From a virus (Duplodnaviria; Heunggongvirae; Uroviricota; Caudoviricetes), in IMG/VR virus record IMGVR_UViG_2651869750_000011, positions 1 through 5,921 of that record: a DNA stretch of 5,921 nucleotides; one strand, written 5' to 3'. Within the stretch, counting starts at the first letter, position 1. Every line of letters starts with the position of its first letter. Positions 1,667 through 5,383 of the stretch are shown here, piece by piece. The notes beneath the pieces are model-generated. The model was not told where the DNA came from. It ran no database searches and saw only the letters and a list, made by a program, of their open reading frames with translations. Both the position numbers and the translations under genes were made by a program.

Positions 1667-1696
1667 AAAACCGCTAATGGTCAGATTAGCGGTTTT
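1667..1696. terminator. Bidirectional intrinsic terminator hairpin between the convergent gpU and invertase genes
   Basis: Perfect inverted repeat AAAACCGCTAAT (1667-1678) / ATTAGCGGTTTT (1685-1696) with a 6-nt loop GGTCAG. It is followed by a T-rich run on the + strand (TTTTCATTTTCC) and, read on the minus strand, by TTTTGCGTTAATC. It lies 8 nt after the gpU stop and overlaps the invertase stop codon (1686-1688). Confidence 0.6.
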
Positions 1697-2285
1697 CATT
1701 TTCCTGAGTCTGCCTGGTTGTTTCTTCAGCCTGTATATCGCCTACAGGGTGATAACGATAAATCGTCGATATGCCGATGTCGTAAATGATCGCCAGTTGT
1801 TTCCTGTCATGACCGTTTTTAATCAGCCTCGCTATTTGCTCGTGTTGTTCTTTTGTCAACTTCGGGCGACGTCCGCCAATGCGTCCTTGTGCGCGTGCTG
1901 CTGCCAGCCCGGCCAGTGTACGCTCTACAATTAATTCACGTTCCATTTCGGCTAAAGCTCCCATGACGTGAAAAAAGAAACGCCCCATGGGTGTTGATGT
2001 GTCAATGCTGTCCGTTAGACTACGGAAATTAACACCTTTTTCCCGCAATTCCTCAATAAGCGTGATCAGGTGTTTCATACTTCTGCCCAGTCTGTCCAGC
2101 TTCCAGACAACCAGCGTATCTCCTTCTGATAGCGTTCTGAGCAGTTTTTTCAATCCCGGTCTGGCTGATTTCGTTCCGCTGATTTTATCTTCAAAAATCA
2201 GTTCACATCCTGCGCACTCCAGCGCGTTACGCTGCAATTCTGTATTCTGGTCATTTGTTGATACGCGGACATAGCCAATAAGCAT
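1686..2285 (-). CDS. pin: Serine site-specific DNA invertase (Hin/Gin/Pin/Cin family resolvase-invertase)
   Basis: The 199-aa product begins MLIGYVRVSTNDQNT (catalytic Ser in the YVRVST motif) and carries VVWKLDRLGRSMKHL, GRFFFHVMGALAEMERELIVERT and GRIGGRRPKL plus a C-terminal helix-turn-helix region. These are the hallmarks of the Gin/Pin/Hin/Cin invertases. An AGGGGA Shine-Dalgarno lies 6 nt before the ATG (minus strand). The symbol is a family-level guess; closest remembered match is E. coli e14 Pin. Confidence 0.9.
   Translation of the reverse strand: MLIGYVRVSTNDQNTELQRNALECAGCELIFEDKISGTKSARPGLKKLLRTLSEGDTLVVWKLDRLGRSMKHLITLIEELREKGVNFRSLTDSIDTSTPMGRFFFHVMGALAEMERELIVERTLAGLAAARAQGRIGGRRPKLTKEQHEQIARLIKNGHDRKQLAIIYDIGISTIYRYHPVGDIQAEETTRQTQENENR
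2179..2201. promoter_or_regulatory. Palindrome inside the invertase 5' coding region; candidate recombinational enhancer (Fis-binding) element
   Basis: CTGATTTT-ATCTTCA-AAAATCAG is a perfect 8-bp inverted repeat with a 7-bp spacer. It lies 84-106 bp inside the invertase ORF and about 160 bp from the nearer crossover site. In Hin and Gin systems the Fis-dependent enhancer sits in the 5' part of the invertase gene. Positional inference only. Confidence 0.25.
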
Positions 2286-2340
2286 GATGGATCCCCTGAA
2301 TAAAAACCGGGGATGATGCCAGTTAGCCGTAATCTCTGCA

Positions 2341-2366
2341 TTTTCTTAAACGTTGGTTTGGGAGAA
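2341..2366. repeat. Crossover site (gix/hix/pix-like), invertase-proximal end of the invertible segment
   Basis: TTTTCTTAAACG-TT-GGTTTGGGAGAA is an imperfect 12-2-12 dyad resembling the Hin-family half-site consensus TTATCAAAAACC. Its reverse complement matches the site at 4238-4263 in 13 of the 14 positions covering the inner half plus central dinucleotide. It lies 56 bp upstream of the invertase start. Confidence 0.7.
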
Positions 2367-2885: not shown

Positions 2886-3478
2886 TGAAACCTGTTTTTG
2901 ATGAAAATGGGCTGGCTACAGTACCGGGTAATATGCGTTGTTTTTATTATGAGGCAGTTACGTATGAATATACTGGCTGGTCTGATGAATATATTAATAC
3001 TGGCGTAAGTATGCCCGCTTGTTCCACTGGTATTGACCCGGGCGAATACATTCCGGGAAGAGTGGCAGTATTTACGGGTAAGGGATGGAGCCATGAAGAA
3101 GACCACCGCAATGAGACTGTTTACTCAATCGAAAATGGCGCAGCTGTTACAGTGGATTATATCGGTGCCATCAAAGACGGTTATGTCACGCTTTCACCGT
3201 TAACGCCATACGATAAATGGGATGGTGAGAAATGGGTGACGGATACCGAGGCACAGCATAGCGCCGCACTAGACGCGGCAGAAGTAAAGCGCCAGTCGCT
3301 GATTGATGCTGCAATGGCTTCCATCAGTCTGATTCAACTGAAATTACAGGCCGTGCGGAAGCTGACGCAGCCAGAAAACACCCGACTTAACGCTGTGCTG
3401 GATTATATTGACGCGGTGACGGCAACAGATACCAGCACCGCACCGGATGTCATCTGGCCTGAACTGCCGGAGGCGTAG
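2885..3478 (+). CDS. Tail fibre assembly protein (Tfa / Mu U-like chaperone), silent-orientation cassette
   Basis: 197 aa, translationally coupled to the upstream fibre cassette (TAATG overlap; GAGGG RBS at 2873-2877). The C-terminus (LDYIDAVTATDTSTAPDVIWPELPEA) is the conserved tail-fibre-assembly C-terminal motif. It converges on, and overlaps by 29 bp, the 3' end of the opposite-strand chaperone gene. Confidence 0.8.
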   Translation: MKPVFDENGLATVPGNMRCFYYEAVTYEYTGWSDEYINTGVSMPACSTGIDPGEYIPGRVAVFTGKGWSHEEDHRNETVYSIENGAAVTVDYIGAIKDGYVTLSPLTPYDKWDGEKWVTDTEAQHSAALDAAEVKRQSLIDAAMASISLIQLKLQAVRKLTQPENTRLNAVLDYIDAVTATDTSTAPDVIWPELPEA

Positions 3479-3890
3479 GCCATTCAATATCTGGCGCACC
3501 GGAAGTATCGACCAGTTCCAGTGCGTCCAGATAATCCAGCCACAAATTATATTGCACCAGTTCCTCACCTTTCAGGCGACCAATCGCCGCTTTACCAGGC
3601 CATTGCTTACTGTTTATGTATTCGTTGACCTGATTAATCAATTGCTGCTTTTTCAGTTCGGCTGCGGCAATTTGTTCCTCATGAGTTGGCGGTGGAATAT
3701 CAATCCATGCAGGCATTCCGTCGATGACACCTCTGTATTTTCCTTCTGGTGCTTCCTTCATAAATTCGGCAGCAACAGTGTCGTCAATTTCGATTCCATC
3801 ATCGGGCCATTCGCCGGATTCCTGATAAGCGATTTTAAGCTCCACAGGGAAAAACGCATTTTTATCGGCACTGAAAATATATTTCTGCAT
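3450..3890 (-). CDS. Tail fibre assembly protein (Tfa / P2 gpG / Mu U-like chaperone), currently expressed cassette
   Basis: 146 aa, starting 2 nt after the fibre gene stop, with an AGGA RBS 8 nt upstream. The C-terminus (LWLDYLDALELVDTSGAPDIEWPTPP) is the conserved chaperone motif. Confidence 0.85.
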   Translation of the reverse strand: MQKYIFSADKNAFFPVELKIAYQESGEWPDDGIEIDDTVAAEFMKEAPEGKYRGVIDGMPAWIDIPPPTHEEQIAAAELKKQQLINQVNEYINSKQWPGKAAIGRLKGEELVQYNLWLDYLDALELVDTSGAPDIEWPTPPAVQAR

Positions 3891-3892
3891 TT

Positions 3893-5383
3893 CTACCGTC
3901 CTATCGAAATATAACTGAATCTGTATTGCTGTGAGATATCACTGGTTGCCACACGCCACGCTGAATTACTGATATGTTCAAAATTTACAGACAAAACCTG
4001 CGGGGCAGGAATCGACGGGTCTGACTGAACGGCATCAGACATAACACTGACTGAAACCATCGGCTGATTAGGGAATGGTATAGGGAAGTGTCCACTGATA
4101 AAGCGGGTCGTGTTTCCTGCAAAAGTGCCAAACTGAACAATATATCCACCTGGTAGCCTGAACCATCCCGAACCAGAAGCGAATGCTCCCATATCCGGTA
4201 TCTGATTATCTCCTGTGCCCACATTCCGTTTTGCCGCTTCTCCTAAACCAAGGTAATCAAGAACTCCCTGAGTGCTGGTTTTACCAAGAATGGCACGTCC
4301 AACACTTGTCAACGCGGTTAACGCGGCACGATCTGCCCCTGTAAAATATGGGAGTTTATCTGCTGATGTAGCAAGCTCCGCCAGCGCCGTCAGGGTGGCA
4401 TCCTTCGGTTGCTTACCCGCAAGCGCGTTAGTCATGGTGGTCGCAAAATTCGGGTCATTGCCCAGCGCCGCAGCCAGTTCGTTCAGCGTGTTCAGTGCAT
4501 CAGGTGACGAATCTACAAGTGCGGCAATCGCAGCCATAACGAAAGCCGTGCTTGCGATCTGGGTACTATTAGTCCCCTGTGGCGCTGTTGGTGTTGTTGG
4601 CGTTCCGGTCAGTGCCGGGCTGTTTAATGGTGCTTTCTTGTTCGTTTCATCCATTACCGCCTTAACAGCTTTTGGTGTCGCTGCCAGCGTTTCAGACGTG
4701 CTGTTCGTGGCGCTACTGAGCTGAACAATCCCTTTTTGTGTAGTGGTGGCGTTCTGGGCGGTATATTTCCCGTTAGCCAGGTCATATGCAGCCTTAACCG
4801 CTTTCGGTGTTGCGGCCAGTGTTTCTGATTCACTGTTAATTGCACTGCTTAACTGAGTAAAACCTTTTACGGTCAGCGAGGCGTCCGGGTGACGTCGTGA
4901 CTGTTCGTGCTCTGATATTTTATCATCCACATATTTGCGGGTTGCCAGAACCACAGACGGGTCGATTTTCAGCGTGATAGCTTCGGTGTTCGTGACAACC
5001 AGAATCATGCGGATAGTCTGGGTGCGTCCACTGCCTTCCTGCAACTGCGGTTTGTACGTTTCCGGGCAGTTTGCCACCGCAATGAGTACACCTTCATCAT
5101 CATAAAGACCAATCTCACGGATCCAGAATCCTCCCTCGTTTTCAGGGATGATTTGCTCCGCAATAATCTGGCTCTGATTGTTAGGGTCAACACTCAGAAG
5201 ATTCAGCGGTGCAATGCGTTTCTGGTTAATCAGTTTTGTTTGTGCAGGGTCTGGTGTTGGTAACACACCATTTGCATCACCAACGGCCATTTGCGTCAGA
5301 TTCAGCTTACTGCCGAGCATCGTCGCGTTAGCCAGTCGTGCCGCGCCCTGATTAGTCAGAATGGCGTAGTATTTCACTGTCAT
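3893..5383 (-). CDS. Tail fibre protein (P2 gpH-like constant N-terminal 378 aa fused to a 118-aa variable C-terminus encoded inside the invertible segment)
   Basis: 496 aa. The N-terminal region ([10 protein letters not shown]..., [66 protein letters not shown] repeats) matches what I recall of P2 gpH. The ORF crosses the crossover site at 4238-4263 at the sequence ...VLDYL/GLGE.... Its start overlaps the gpI-like stop (ATGA at 5380-5383). Confidence 0.9.
   Translation of the reverse strand: [496 protein letters not shown]
4238..4263. repeat. Crossover site (gix/hix/pix-like) inside the tail fibre gene; distal end of the invertible segment
   Basis: TTCTCCTAAACC-AA-GGTAATCAAGAA on the + strand. 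The outer half read on the minus strand is TTCTTGATTACC, matching the remembered hix half-site TTCTTGAAAACC at 10 of 12 positions. The inner half matches the inner half of the 2341-2366 site at 11 of 12 positions. The site is embedded in the codons for VLDYLGLGE. Confidence 0.7.
4659..4858. repeat. Two copies of an approximately 68-bp direct repeat, 132 bp apart, inside the tail fibre gene
   Basis: GCCTTAACAGCTTTTGGTGTCGCTGCCAGCGTTTCAGA... (from 4659) and GCCTTAACCGCTTTCGGTGTTGCGGCCAGTGTTTCTGA... (from 4791) encode the repeated peptide QLSSA(I/T)NS(E/T)[13 protein letters not shown]. The spacing is in frame (44 codons). Confidence 0.6.

What the first reader, a model, noticed from the sequence alone, without database searches (positions are those of the whole stretch)
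1686..5383. Complete invertase-driven tail-fibre switch with two alternative receptor-binding cassettes
The sequence shows every part of a Gin/Pin-type inversion switch: an invertase gene just outside the segment, two inverted 26-bp crossover sites, and two convergent cassettes that each pair a fibre C-terminal domain with its own assembly chaperone. The reading frame is kept across both sites (both read GGT TT(A/G) GGA GAA = GLGE after the central dinucleotide), so inversion would swap a 118-aa C-terminus ([23 protein letters not shown]...SIGR) for a 176-aa one (GLGEGAPAIGVPFFWPSAAMPDTVID...VRAK) on a constant 378-aa N-terminus. Established knowledge: in Mu, P1 and e14 this alternates host range. 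Here it sits on a P2-like fibre/baseplate backbone.
Basis: partly seen in the sequence, partly recalled or inferred. Interest (0 to 1): 0.7.

Follow-up and report, generated by a model that had tools for sequence, protein, structure and literature searches.

The report
Invertible tail-fibre switch of P88-like prophage
This is a real, intact DNA-flipping switch that lets a P2/P88-like E. coli prophage put one of two alternative tips on its tail fibre, but it is an ordinary, already described kind of switch whose near-identical relative has been shown experimentally to flip.

Summary
There is a 199-aa Gin/Pin-type serine invertase (1686-2285, minus). Two 26-bp pix/cix-type crossover sites lie in inverted orientation (2341-2366 and 4238-4263). 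Between them are two convergent cassettes, each a fibre C-terminus followed by a Caudo_TAP chaperone. Inverting 2353-4251 in silico keeps the frame and swaps a 118-aa tip for a 176-aa tip on a constant 378-aa N-terminus.

The in-silico inverted window equals the prophage of E. coli O111:H2 strain 12A, with no mismatch over positions 1-5835 and both recombinant sites exactly as predicted. One draft contig from another isolate carries both junction types.

The element is a P88-like (Xuanwuvirus, Peduoviridae) prophage. EPEC E2348/69 carries the same prophage type, with an identical constant fibre part and a 97.8 % identical invertase. That locus was shown by sequencing and PCR to flip (Goldberg et al. 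2014). The layout is collinear with the e14 P, Mu G and P1 C regions.

Not shown here are the Fis enhancer (only suggestive signals), the receptors, and flipping in the source strain itself. Verdict: real, complete, already known; low interest.

The parts
1..1158 (+). 3' part of the tail tape-measure gene (context; cut by the contig end)
   Evidence: ORF 49-1158. Annotated as phage tail tape measure protein in relatives. The gene call in L009 runs to the contig end.
1165..1659 (+). P2 gpU-type tail protein (context), convergent with the invertase
   Evidence: Pfam Phage_P2_GpU, E 5.5e-39.
1667..1696 (.). Terminator-like hairpin between gpU and the invertase. It overlaps the 3' end of the invertase ORF and could act in both directions.
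   Evidence: 12-pair stem followed by a T-run on +. The A-run on its 5' side gives a T-run on the other strand (sequence).
1686..2285 (-). Serine DNA invertase, 199 aa, Gin/Pin/Cin/Hin family, just outside the invertible segment
   Evidence: Resolvase + HTH_7 domains. Matches Gin structures 4M6F/3UJ3 at E about 1e-91. Identity is 82.5 % to PinE, 75.7 % to Gin and 75.3 % to Cin. Carries the N-terminal GYVRVSTNDQ motif with Ser9.
2201..2264 (-). Candidate recombinational (Fis) enhancer inside the 5' end of the invertase gene (gene nt 22-85); inferred, not shown
   Evidence: G-N13-C 15-mers at gene nt 22-36 and 71-85 keep their position in 4-5 of 5 invertase genes. Synonymous codon identity is 0.61 in codons 2-30 against 0.29-0.42 elsewhere.
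2341..2366 (.). Invertase-proximal 26-bp crossover site, central dinucleotide TT at 2353-2354
   Evidence: Identical at 25 of 26 positions to the invertase-proximal pix site of e14.
2353..4251 (.). Invertible segment (1899 bp, centre to centre)
   Evidence: Alignment to strain 12A switches strand exactly here. Homology with the unrelated phage vB_EcoM-606R2 spans 2348-4254.
2355..2885 (+). Silent alternative fibre C-terminus (176 aa, GLGEGAP...VRAK)
   Evidence: Weak Collar domain hit and weak match to the T4 gp37 tip 2XGF, E 1.3e-4. It is the expressed C-terminus of the 554-aa fibre in strains 12A and FAM21845.
2885..3478 (+). Silent tail-fibre assembly chaperone (197 aa) paired with the 176-aa tip
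   Evidence: Caudo_TAP, E 1.5e-24. 60.5 % identical to e14 TfaE.
3450..3890 (-). Currently expressed tail-fibre assembly chaperone (146 aa). Its 3' end overlaps the silent chaperone gene by 29 nt.
   Evidence: Caudo_TAP, E 9e-34. 55.6 % identical to e14 TfaP.
3893..4249 (-). Currently expressed variable fibre C-terminus (118 aa, GLGEAAK...SIGR)
   Evidence: Gp53-like_C domain over residues 409-496.
4238..4263 (.). Distal 26-bp crossover site inside the fibre gene, central dinucleotide AA at 4250-4251
4250..5383 (-). Constant N-terminal part of the fibre (378 aa)
   Evidence: Phage_tail_fib N-terminal domain plus Phage_fiber_2 repeats. 378/378 aa identical in EPEC E2348/69.
5380..5921 (-). P2 gpI-type baseplate protein (context; 5' end lies beyond the contig)
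   Evidence: Tail_P2_I, E 1.5e-40. The gene call runs to the contig end.

Best explanation
The window is the tail-fibre end of a P88-like (Xuanwuvirus, P2-related) E. coli prophage. It carries a complete, functional Gin/Pin-type site-specific inversion switch.

**Proposed mechanism.** The invertase (1686-2285) binds as dimers to the two 26-bp sites. Together with host Fis bound to an enhancer in the 5' part of its own gene, it forms a synaptic tetramer. It cuts both sites with a 2-bp stagger at the identical central AA/TT, rotates one half of the complex by 180 degrees and religates. This flips the 1.9-kb segment 2353-4251.

**Consequence.** The distal site lies inside the fibre gene, in frame. 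The late operon, reading I-H on the minus strand, therefore always makes the same 378-aa N-terminus, which attaches to the baseplate. It continues either into the 118-aa gp53-like tip with its 146-aa chaperone (the state in this window) or into the 176-aa collar/gp37-like tip with its 197-aa chaperone (the state in strain 12A). The cassette facing away has no promoter-proximal N-terminus and stays silent. A lysogen population therefore releases particles with two receptor specificities.

**Shown here:** the anatomy, frame conservation, existence of both orientations, and the crossover interval.

**Taken from a near-identical relative:** flipping within single colonies.

**Inferred:** Fis/enhancer dependence, silence of the distal cassette, and the change of host range.
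For: - **Anatomy and frame:**
- **Site motif:** occurs exactly twice, inverted, with 0.00 expected by chance. The sites are of the pix/cix type with central AA, and the left site matches e14 pix at 25 of 26 positions.
- **Invertase:** 75-83 % identical to Gin, Cin and PinE. It has Ser9 and the residues that PMC3798978 names as specific to Fis-dependent invertases: Hin K47, basic 48 and 51, Q151, R154, L155, which correspond here to K46, K47, R50, Q150, R153, L154.
- **Both orientations in nature:** the inverted junction is 100 % identical over 1000 nt in strain 12A. The whole inverted window aligns over 5921/5921 positions with 3 mismatches, all beyond 5835.
- **Crossover interval:** the C/T difference at position 7 of the inner half-site travels with the segment, and the outer halves stay in place. 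This bounds the exchange to AAACCAA, which contains the central dinucleotide.
- **Orientation census:** at 98 % identity or more, 7 complete genomes hold the native junction and 2 hold the inverted one.
- **Mixed orientations in one assembly:** contig L010 holds both junctions.
- **Experimental precedent:** the EPEC E2348/69 locus has the same gene order, a 378/378 identical constant part and a 97.8 % identical invertase. It was shown by sequencing and PCR to flip (PMC4272514).
- **Enhancer hint:** raised synonymous conservation in invertase codons 2-30 and positionally conserved Fis-like 15-mers.
Against: - No read-level data from the source strain (GCA_001265715.1) were available, so flipping in this particular isolate is not shown.
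- The enhancer is not demonstrated. The two candidate 15-mers are 49 bp apart, against 47 bp published for hin, and the distal one lacks an A/T-rich core.
- No sigma-70-like promoter for the invertase was found upstream of its start.
- The receptors, and therefore the host-range effect, are unknown.
- The two orientations are compared between isolates, and L010 could alternatively reflect two prophage copies.
Confidence: 0.88

Rival explanations
1. The switch is a frozen relic in this strain. All parts look intact, but inversion no longer happens, for example because the enhancer or the invertase promoter is defective. Under this reading the orientation differences between isolates are old events.
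For: No promoter-like site was found for the invertase. The enhancer is only suggestive. No reads from the source strain were examined.
Against: The window and strain 12A differ by the inversion and by nothing else over 5835 nt, so the flip is very recent. L010 carries both junctions in one assembly. The 97.8 % identical invertase of E2348/69 flips its segment within colonies (PMC4272514). The invertase ORF and its catalytic and Fis-contact residues are intact.
Confidence: 0.06
2. The switch works, but its biological role is for the bacterium rather than for the host range of an infectious phage. Examples would be retargeting a tailocin-like particle or a defective prophage.
For: The window holds only tail genes. 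Many E. coli P2-like prophages are defective. Goldberg et al. raise this possibility.
Against: In strain 12A and in the NCTC contig L008 the same element is flanked by lysis, head-completion and terminase genes. P88 and PhiSM, of the same family and with the same invertase-fibre layout, are inducible infectious phages (PMC6456863).
Confidence: 0.05
3. The opposite orientations seen in databases are artefacts, either of assembly or of RecA-dependent recombination between short repeats, and are not invertase products.
For: Draft assemblers can mis-join at repeats. L010 is itself a chimeric path.
Against: The shared repeat is only 14 nt, too short to confuse assemblers or to serve RecA. 12A, FAM21845 and the native-orientation genomes are complete assemblies. 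The exchange point falls within the 7 nt that include the canonical cleavage dinucleotide.
Confidence: 0.01

Closest known systems
Invertible tail-fibre locus of the P2-like prophage of EPEC E2348/69 (NC_011601.1, 1,891,695-1,893,703; Goldberg et al. 2014, PMC4272514)
   Same: It has the same prophage type and gene order: FI FII E E' T U, then the convergent invertase, the invertible cassettes, and H I J W V. The constant fibre part is 378/378 aa identical, the invertase 97.8 % identical and the flanks 96.7-99.3 % identical at DNA level. The crossover cores are the same. Flipping was demonstrated experimentally.
   Different: E2348/69 has three crossover sites and three alternative C-termini, giving four variants in a shufflon-like arrangement, with a single chaperone gene. 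The window has two sites and two tip-plus-chaperone cassettes. The variable tips are only about 40 % identical.
P segment / PinE of cryptic prophage e14 (E. coli K-12)
   Same: The layout is collinear: constant part, site, tip, chaperone, then reversed chaperone', tip', site and invertase. PinE is 82.5 % identical, TfaE 60.5 %, TfaP 55.6 % and the StfE tip 43 %. The invertase-proximal site is identical at 25 of 26 positions, with central AA. The two chaperone genes overlap by 29 nt at their 3' ends in both.
   Different: e14 is a defective lambdoid element with a short fibre constant part. The 118-aa gp53-like tip of the window has no counterpart in e14.
G segment / Gin of phage Mu and C segment / Cin of phage P1
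   Same: The mechanism class and layout are the same. Gin is 75.7 % and Cin 75.3 % identical. The last 69 aa of the constant part are 75 % identical to the P1 S protein just before its cix site. The fibre repeats are shared with Mu S.
   Different: The Mu gix sites have a GA/TC centre rather than AA. The segments are larger (3 and 4.2 kb), the tips are different, and the virion backbones differ (Mu-like, P1-like).
Phage P88, Citrobacter phage PhiSM and other Xuanwuvirus (Peduoviridae)
   Same: These are the closest phage genomes, at 88-93 % identity over the backbone. Their records annotate a tape measure, gpU, DNA invertase, two fibre genes and two assembly genes in the same order.
   Different: Only about 55 % of the window is covered, and the cassettes differ. 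The papers I read on these phages mention the invertase gene only in passing or not at all, and do not analyse the switch.

Membership tests
Fis/enhancer-dependent DNA invertase systems (Hin/Gin/Cin/Pin) | Small serine recombinase: N-terminal catalytic domain with the nucleophilic Ser9/10, and a C-terminal helix-turn-helix | tested here: met
   Resolvase + HTH_7 domains. GYVRVSTNDQ motif with Ser9. Aligns over residues 1-185 with Gin structures at E 1e-91. 75-83 % identical to Gin, Cin and PinE.
Fis/enhancer-dependent DNA invertase systems (Hin/Gin/Cin/Pin) | Two 26-bp imperfectly symmetric crossover sites in inverted orientation with identical central dinucleotides | tested here: met
   Sites at 2341-2366 and 4238-4263, both with central AA when read from inside the segment outwards. 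Same consensus as the pix, cix and gix sites extracted from e14, P1 and Mu. The motif occurs twice against 0.00 expected.
Fis/enhancer-dependent DNA invertase systems (Hin/Gin/Cin/Pin) | Recombinational enhancer in cis with two Fis sites about 47 bp apart (PMC3798978). From my own knowledge, it lies in the 5' part of the invertase gene in gin, cin and hin. | tested here: inconclusive
   G-N13-C 15-mers at gene nt 22-36 and 71-85 are 49 bp apart and conserved in position across 4-5 of 5 genes. Synonymous codon identity is 0.61 in codons 2-30 against 0.29-0.42 elsewhere. There are no binding data, and the distal motif lacks an A/T-rich core.
Fis/enhancer-dependent DNA invertase systems (Hin/Gin/Cin/Pin) | Residues that contact Fis or the enhancer and are specific to invertases (Hin K47, basic 48 and 51, Q151, R154, L155) | tested here: met
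   K46, K47, R50, Q150, R153 and L154 are present in the translated gene. The residue list comes from PMC3798978. Numbering is shifted by one, as in Gin.
Fis/enhancer-dependent DNA invertase systems (Hin/Gin/Cin/Pin) | The segment actually inverts | tested here: met
   Both orientations of the same element occur, with the exchange bounded to AAACCAA. Both junctions occur in one draft assembly. There is experimental proof in the 97.8 %-identical system of E2348/69. Flipping in the source culture itself was not tested.
Invertible phage tail-fibre cassettes (Mu G, P1 C, e14 P type) | A constant N-terminal fibre part outside the segment and alternative C-termini inside, joined in frame across the crossover site | tested here: met
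   378 + 118 aa in the native state and 378 + 176 aa after in-silico inversion. The 554-aa form is annotated as one CDS in strains 12A and FAM21845.
Invertible phage tail-fibre cassettes (Mu G, P1 C, e14 P type) | Each alternative C-terminus is followed by its own assembly chaperone, and the two cassettes are convergent | tested here: met
   Two Caudo_TAP proteins at 2885-3478 (+) and 3450-3890 (-).
Invertible phage tail-fibre cassettes (Mu G, P1 C, e14 P type) | The two orientations give different host ranges | not testable with these tools
   The two tips are unrelated in sequence and match different domain families: gp53-like C against collar/T4 gp37-like. This fits different receptors but does not show it.
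P88-like phages (Xuanwuvirus, Peduoviridae) | P2-type tail and baseplate genes in two convergent blocks (FI-U and V-H) with the invertase between them, and high DNA identity to P88-group genomes | tested here: met
   gpU and gpI Pfam domains. Same gene order in complete genomes. 88-93 % identity to phages 500465-2, P88, P884B11 and PhiSM.

The most novel reading that the evidence does not exclude
The whole invertible segment, with both tip-plus-chaperone cassettes, behaves as a mobile unit. It is swapped between unrelated phage backbones by invertase-mediated intermolecular recombination at the crossover sites, not only by homologous recombination. Window 2348-4254 is 95.6 % identical to the segment of phage vB_EcoM-606R2, which has a different baseplate, a short fibre constant part and a truncated invertase. 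The homology ends inside the two 26-bp sites. To my knowledge the idea of site-bounded cassette exchange was already proposed in the 1990s for the Min/Cin regions, so even this reading is not new in principle.
Probability: 0.25. Interest if true: 0.3.

Novelty: already known. Interest (0 to 1): 0.12.

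Why it matters
It matters little as a discovery. Invertase-driven alternation of tail-fibre tips is textbook knowledge (Mu, P1, e14). The same switch on the same P2/P88-like backbone has been shown to flip in EPEC E2348/69.

It has some practical value:
- It explains why closely related E. coli assemblies differ in this region and why draft contigs break or become chimeric here.
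- It shows that automatic annotation misreads both the silent cassette and the chimeric fibre gene.
- It gives two naturally paired tip-plus-chaperone modules that could be used for retargeting P2-type phages or tailocins.

Tried and rejected
- **PDB sequence searches** with the two chaperones found nothing. The fibre and the silent tip gave only weak partial matches, so no structural argument is built on them.
I therefore could not ask whether it occurs in the same samples as the 496-aa form.
- **Johnson's 2015 review** on serine invertases is not held, so the enhancer position rests on PMC3798978 and on my own recollection.
- **Promoter scan:** it found no convincing invertase promoter in 2286-2352, and overall counts did not exceed the shuffles.
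- **Strict Fis-motif scan** (A/T-rich core) gave several candidates with spacings of 37-72 bp and no clear pair. A looser, position-conservation approach gave the pair 22-36 and 71-85. I report this as inconclusive.
- **Hybrid invertase idea:** I considered a Pin-like catalytic domain joined to a Hin-like DNA-binding domain. I dropped it because my only Hin sequence was from memory and the apparent identity was no higher than to Gin.
- **5'-UTR hairpin:** I considered a hairpin masking the invertase start codon as a regulator. The fold has z = -2.6 here, and similar pairing is predicted for pinE and gin. It is absent upstream of the 97.8 %-identical E2348/69 invertase, so it cannot be essential.
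- **Third crossover site** (a shufflon, as in E2348/69): none is present in the window.

Full report
**1. What is in the window**

The window is a whole 5921-bp draft contig, JHRY01000196.1 of assembly GCA_001265715.1, in reverse orientation.

On the plus strand it starts with the 3' part of a tail tape-measure gene (to 1158) and a P2 gpU-type gene (1165-1659; Pfam E 5.5e-39).

On the minus strand, read from the right end, it holds:
- a gpI-type baseplate gene (5380 to the contig end);
- a 496-aa tail-fibre gene (3893-5383) with a P2-type N-terminal domain, fibre repeats and a gp53-like C-terminus;
- a 146-aa Caudo_TAP chaperone (3450-3890);
- further left, a 199-aa recombinase (1686-2285) with Resolvase and HTH_7 domains.

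Between the chaperone and the recombinase, on the plus strand, lie a 176-aa reading frame that starts with GLGE at 2355 and ends at 2885, and a 197-aa Caudo_TAP chaperone (2885-3478).

**2. Check of the observation**

- 2341-2366: TTTTCTTAAACG TT GGTTTGGGAGAA
- 4238-4263: TTCTCCTAAACC AA GGTAATCAAGAA

Read in inverted register they agree at 18 of 26 positions. Nearly all of these are in the inner half-site and the central AA.

As a plain inverted repeat the pair is unremarkable. It is 18 nt at 89 % and ranks seventh in a list dominated by chance pairs. The family motif is a different matter. TTCTCCYAAACCAA occurs exactly twice, in inverted orientation, with 0.00 expected in 200 shuffles. No third copy appears even with two mismatches allowed.

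Inverting 2353-4251 in silico yields a single 554-aa ORF. The constant part is 378 aa, and the variable parts are 118 aa (native) and 176 aa (inverted). Both begin with GLGE. Every number in the finding is therefore right. The only overstatement is calling the sites 26-bp inverted repeats, because the outer halves differ.

**3. What the element is**

Complete E. coli genomes with the same region show this gene order: FI, FII, E, E', T and U on one strand, converging on invertase, cassettes, H, I, J, W, V, S and R on the other. This is the arrangement of phage P88 and its relatives (Xuanwuvirus, Peduoviridae). These are the best phage matches, at 88-93 % identity over about 55 % of the window, and their records annotate a DNA invertase, two fibre genes and two assembly genes in the same order. 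Parts of the window match 4156 of 5426 complete E. coli genomes, so the modules are very common.

**4. Evidence that the segment flips**

A 1000-nt query made from the in-silico inverted junction (constant fibre part joined to the 176-aa tip) is 100.0 % identical to E. coli O111:H2 strain 12A.

The whole inverted window aligns to that genome over 5921 of 5921 positions without gaps. In the native orientation the alignment breaks into three pieces whose ends fall at 2353-2367 and 4237-4254. The three mismatches are all at 5836 or beyond, so positions 1-5835 are identical once the segment is turned.

Both recombinant sites of strain 12A are exactly those predicted. The C/T difference at position 7 of the inner half-site has moved with the segment, while the outer half-sites stayed in place. 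This confines the exchange to the 7 nt AAACCAA, which contain the central dinucleotide where this enzyme family cuts.

Among complete genomes at 98 % identity or more, 7 have the native junction and 2 have the inverted one.

A 3522-bp draft contig from another isolate (JICB01000216.1, locus L010) runs through the native junction and the whole segment. Past the left crossover point it continues for 59 nt into the reverse complement of the constant fibre part. It therefore contains the recombinant junction as well. The simplest reading is an assembler path through reads of both orientations, although two prophage copies cannot be excluded.

**5. Published experimental precedent**

Goldberg et al. 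2014 (PMC4272514) found invertible loci in two P2-like prophages of EPEC E2348/69 by whole-genome sequencing of single colonies and PCR. One of them lies at NC_011601.1 1,891,695-1,893,703, with three repeats and four co-existing variants.

I fetched that region. It has the same gene order as the window. Its fibre constant part is 378/378 aa identical, its invertase is 97.8 % identical and its flanks are 96.7-99.3 % identical at DNA level. Crossover motifs sit at the published coordinates. It differs from the window in cassette content only. The second EPEC locus (2,977,580-2,979,467) is more distant, with a 72 % identical invertase, but has the same two-cassette layout and a crossover site identical to the window's left site.

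**6. Comparison with the classical systems**

I extracted the sites and genes from Mu, P1 and e14.

- **e14:** the P region is collinear with the window. PinE is 82.5 % identical, TfaE 60.5 %, TfaP 55.6 % and the StfE tip 43 %. The invertase-proximal pix site differs from the window's left site at one position in 26.
- **Mu and P1:** Gin and Cin are about 75 % identical, and the Gin crystal structures match at E about 1e-91. Mu's gix sites have a GA centre, whereas pix, cix and the window have AA.
- **Constant-part tail:** the last 69 residues of the constant part are 75 % identical to P1 S just upstream of its cix site.

**7. Mechanism**

The invertase has Ser9 in the conserved N-terminal motif. 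It also has all the residues that McLean et al. (PMC3798978) describe as conserved only in Fis-dependent invertases. These are K46, K47, R50, Q150, R153 and L154 in this protein's numbering.

For the enhancer I have only indirect signals. In five diverged invertase genes, codons 2-30 keep the same synonymous codon far more often than the rest of the gene (0.61 against 0.29-0.42 pairwise identity). G-N13-C 15-mers sit at gene nt 22-36 and 71-85 in four or five of them, 49 bp apart, against the 47 bp published for hin. This fits an embedded cis element at window 2201-2264, but it is not proof. The p-value from pairwise counts is inflated by non-independence.

The likely course is as follows. Invertase dimers bind the two sites. 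They assemble with the Fis-bound enhancer, make a staggered double-strand cut at the central AA/TT, rotate subunits by 180 degrees and religate. The late tail operon then reads from the constant part into whichever cassette faces it.

The two tips are unrelated to each other: a gp53-like C-terminal domain against a weak collar/T4 gp37-tip match. This is what one expects of alternative receptor-binding domains. No receptor is known, and no host-range data exist for this element.

**8. Rivals**

- **Frozen switch.** This is unlikely given zero divergence from strain 12A apart from the flip, the L010 contig and the EPEC experiments.
- **A role for the bacterium only (tailocin or defective prophage).** This cannot be excluded from a tail-only window. 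However, the same element is flanked by lysis, head-completion and terminase genes in complete genomes, and P88 and PhiSM are inducible phages.
- **Assembly or RecA artefact.** This does not fit a 14-nt shared core and an exchange point at the canonical cleavage position.

**9. Verdict**

The switch is complete, apart from the unverified enhancer and the host factor. It is also ordinary. The kind is textbook, the exact sequence is in RefSeq genomes, and a relative with the same constant fibre part and a nearly identical invertase has been shown to flip. I rate it as already known and of low interest.

Noticed in passing
L001 6872-8362 and L002 6820-8310 (equivalent to window 3893-5383): In RefSeq genomes JB2 and DETEC-S589 the fibre gene is annotated as a short 'gp53-like domain-containing protein' CDS plus one or two 'incomplete' pseudogene fragments. 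Yet the ORF there is intact: 496 aa, with 1-5 substitutions relative to the window and no internal stop. This is probably an annotation artefact caused by the chimeric (constant + cassette) nature of the protein.
   Followed up: yes
window 2313-2885 (+): Gene callers and PGAP annotate the silent cassette as a free-standing 189/190-aa 'phage tail protein'. It starts at an ATG in the invertase-site spacer and reads across the crossover site. It is more likely the unexpressed alternative C-terminus than a real protein.
   Followed up: partly
window 2348-4254; L013 (phage vB_EcoM-606R2) 4001-5832: The whole invertible segment is 95.6 % identical in phages with an unrelated baseplate and fibre backbone and a truncated invertase. 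The homology ends inside the two crossover sites. There the 176-aa tip is the expressed one.
   Followed up: partly
L010 (JICB01000216.1) 3449-3522: This draft contig contains both the native and the recombinant junction of the switch. It ends 59 nt after re-entering the constant fibre part in reverse. This is a signature of mixed orientations in the sequenced culture, and a reason why such loci fragment draft assemblies.
   Followed up: yes
window 3197 (inside the silent chaperone gene); L001: Strain JB2 is 99 % identical to the window on both sides, but homology is lost between 2368 and 3197. One cassette tip plus the N-terminal part of its chaperone have therefore been replaced. The mosaic joint lies inside the chaperone gene, where its Caudo_TAP C-terminal region begins.
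   Followed up: no
window 3450-3478, and 3397-3414 / 3523-3540: The two convergent chaperone genes overlap by 29 nt at their 3' ends, as tfaP and tfaE do in e14. They also carry an 18-nt inverted repeat (89 %) that encodes the shared LDY(I/L)DA motif on opposite strands.
   Followed up: no
window 2271-2330 (-): The invertase leader is predicted to fold so that the Shine-Dalgarno sequence and the start codon are paired (-19.2 kcal/mol, z = -2.6). Similar start-codon pairing with an upstream GGCA(U/C) is predicted for pinE and gin, with GUG pairing to CAC in gin. It is absent upstream of the 97.8 %-identical invertase of E2348/69.
   Followed up: partly
window 1667-1696: A 12-pair hairpin flanked by an A-run and a T-run sits between the convergent gpU and invertase genes and overlaps the last codons of the invertase ORF. 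It is a plausible bidirectional terminator.
   Followed up: no
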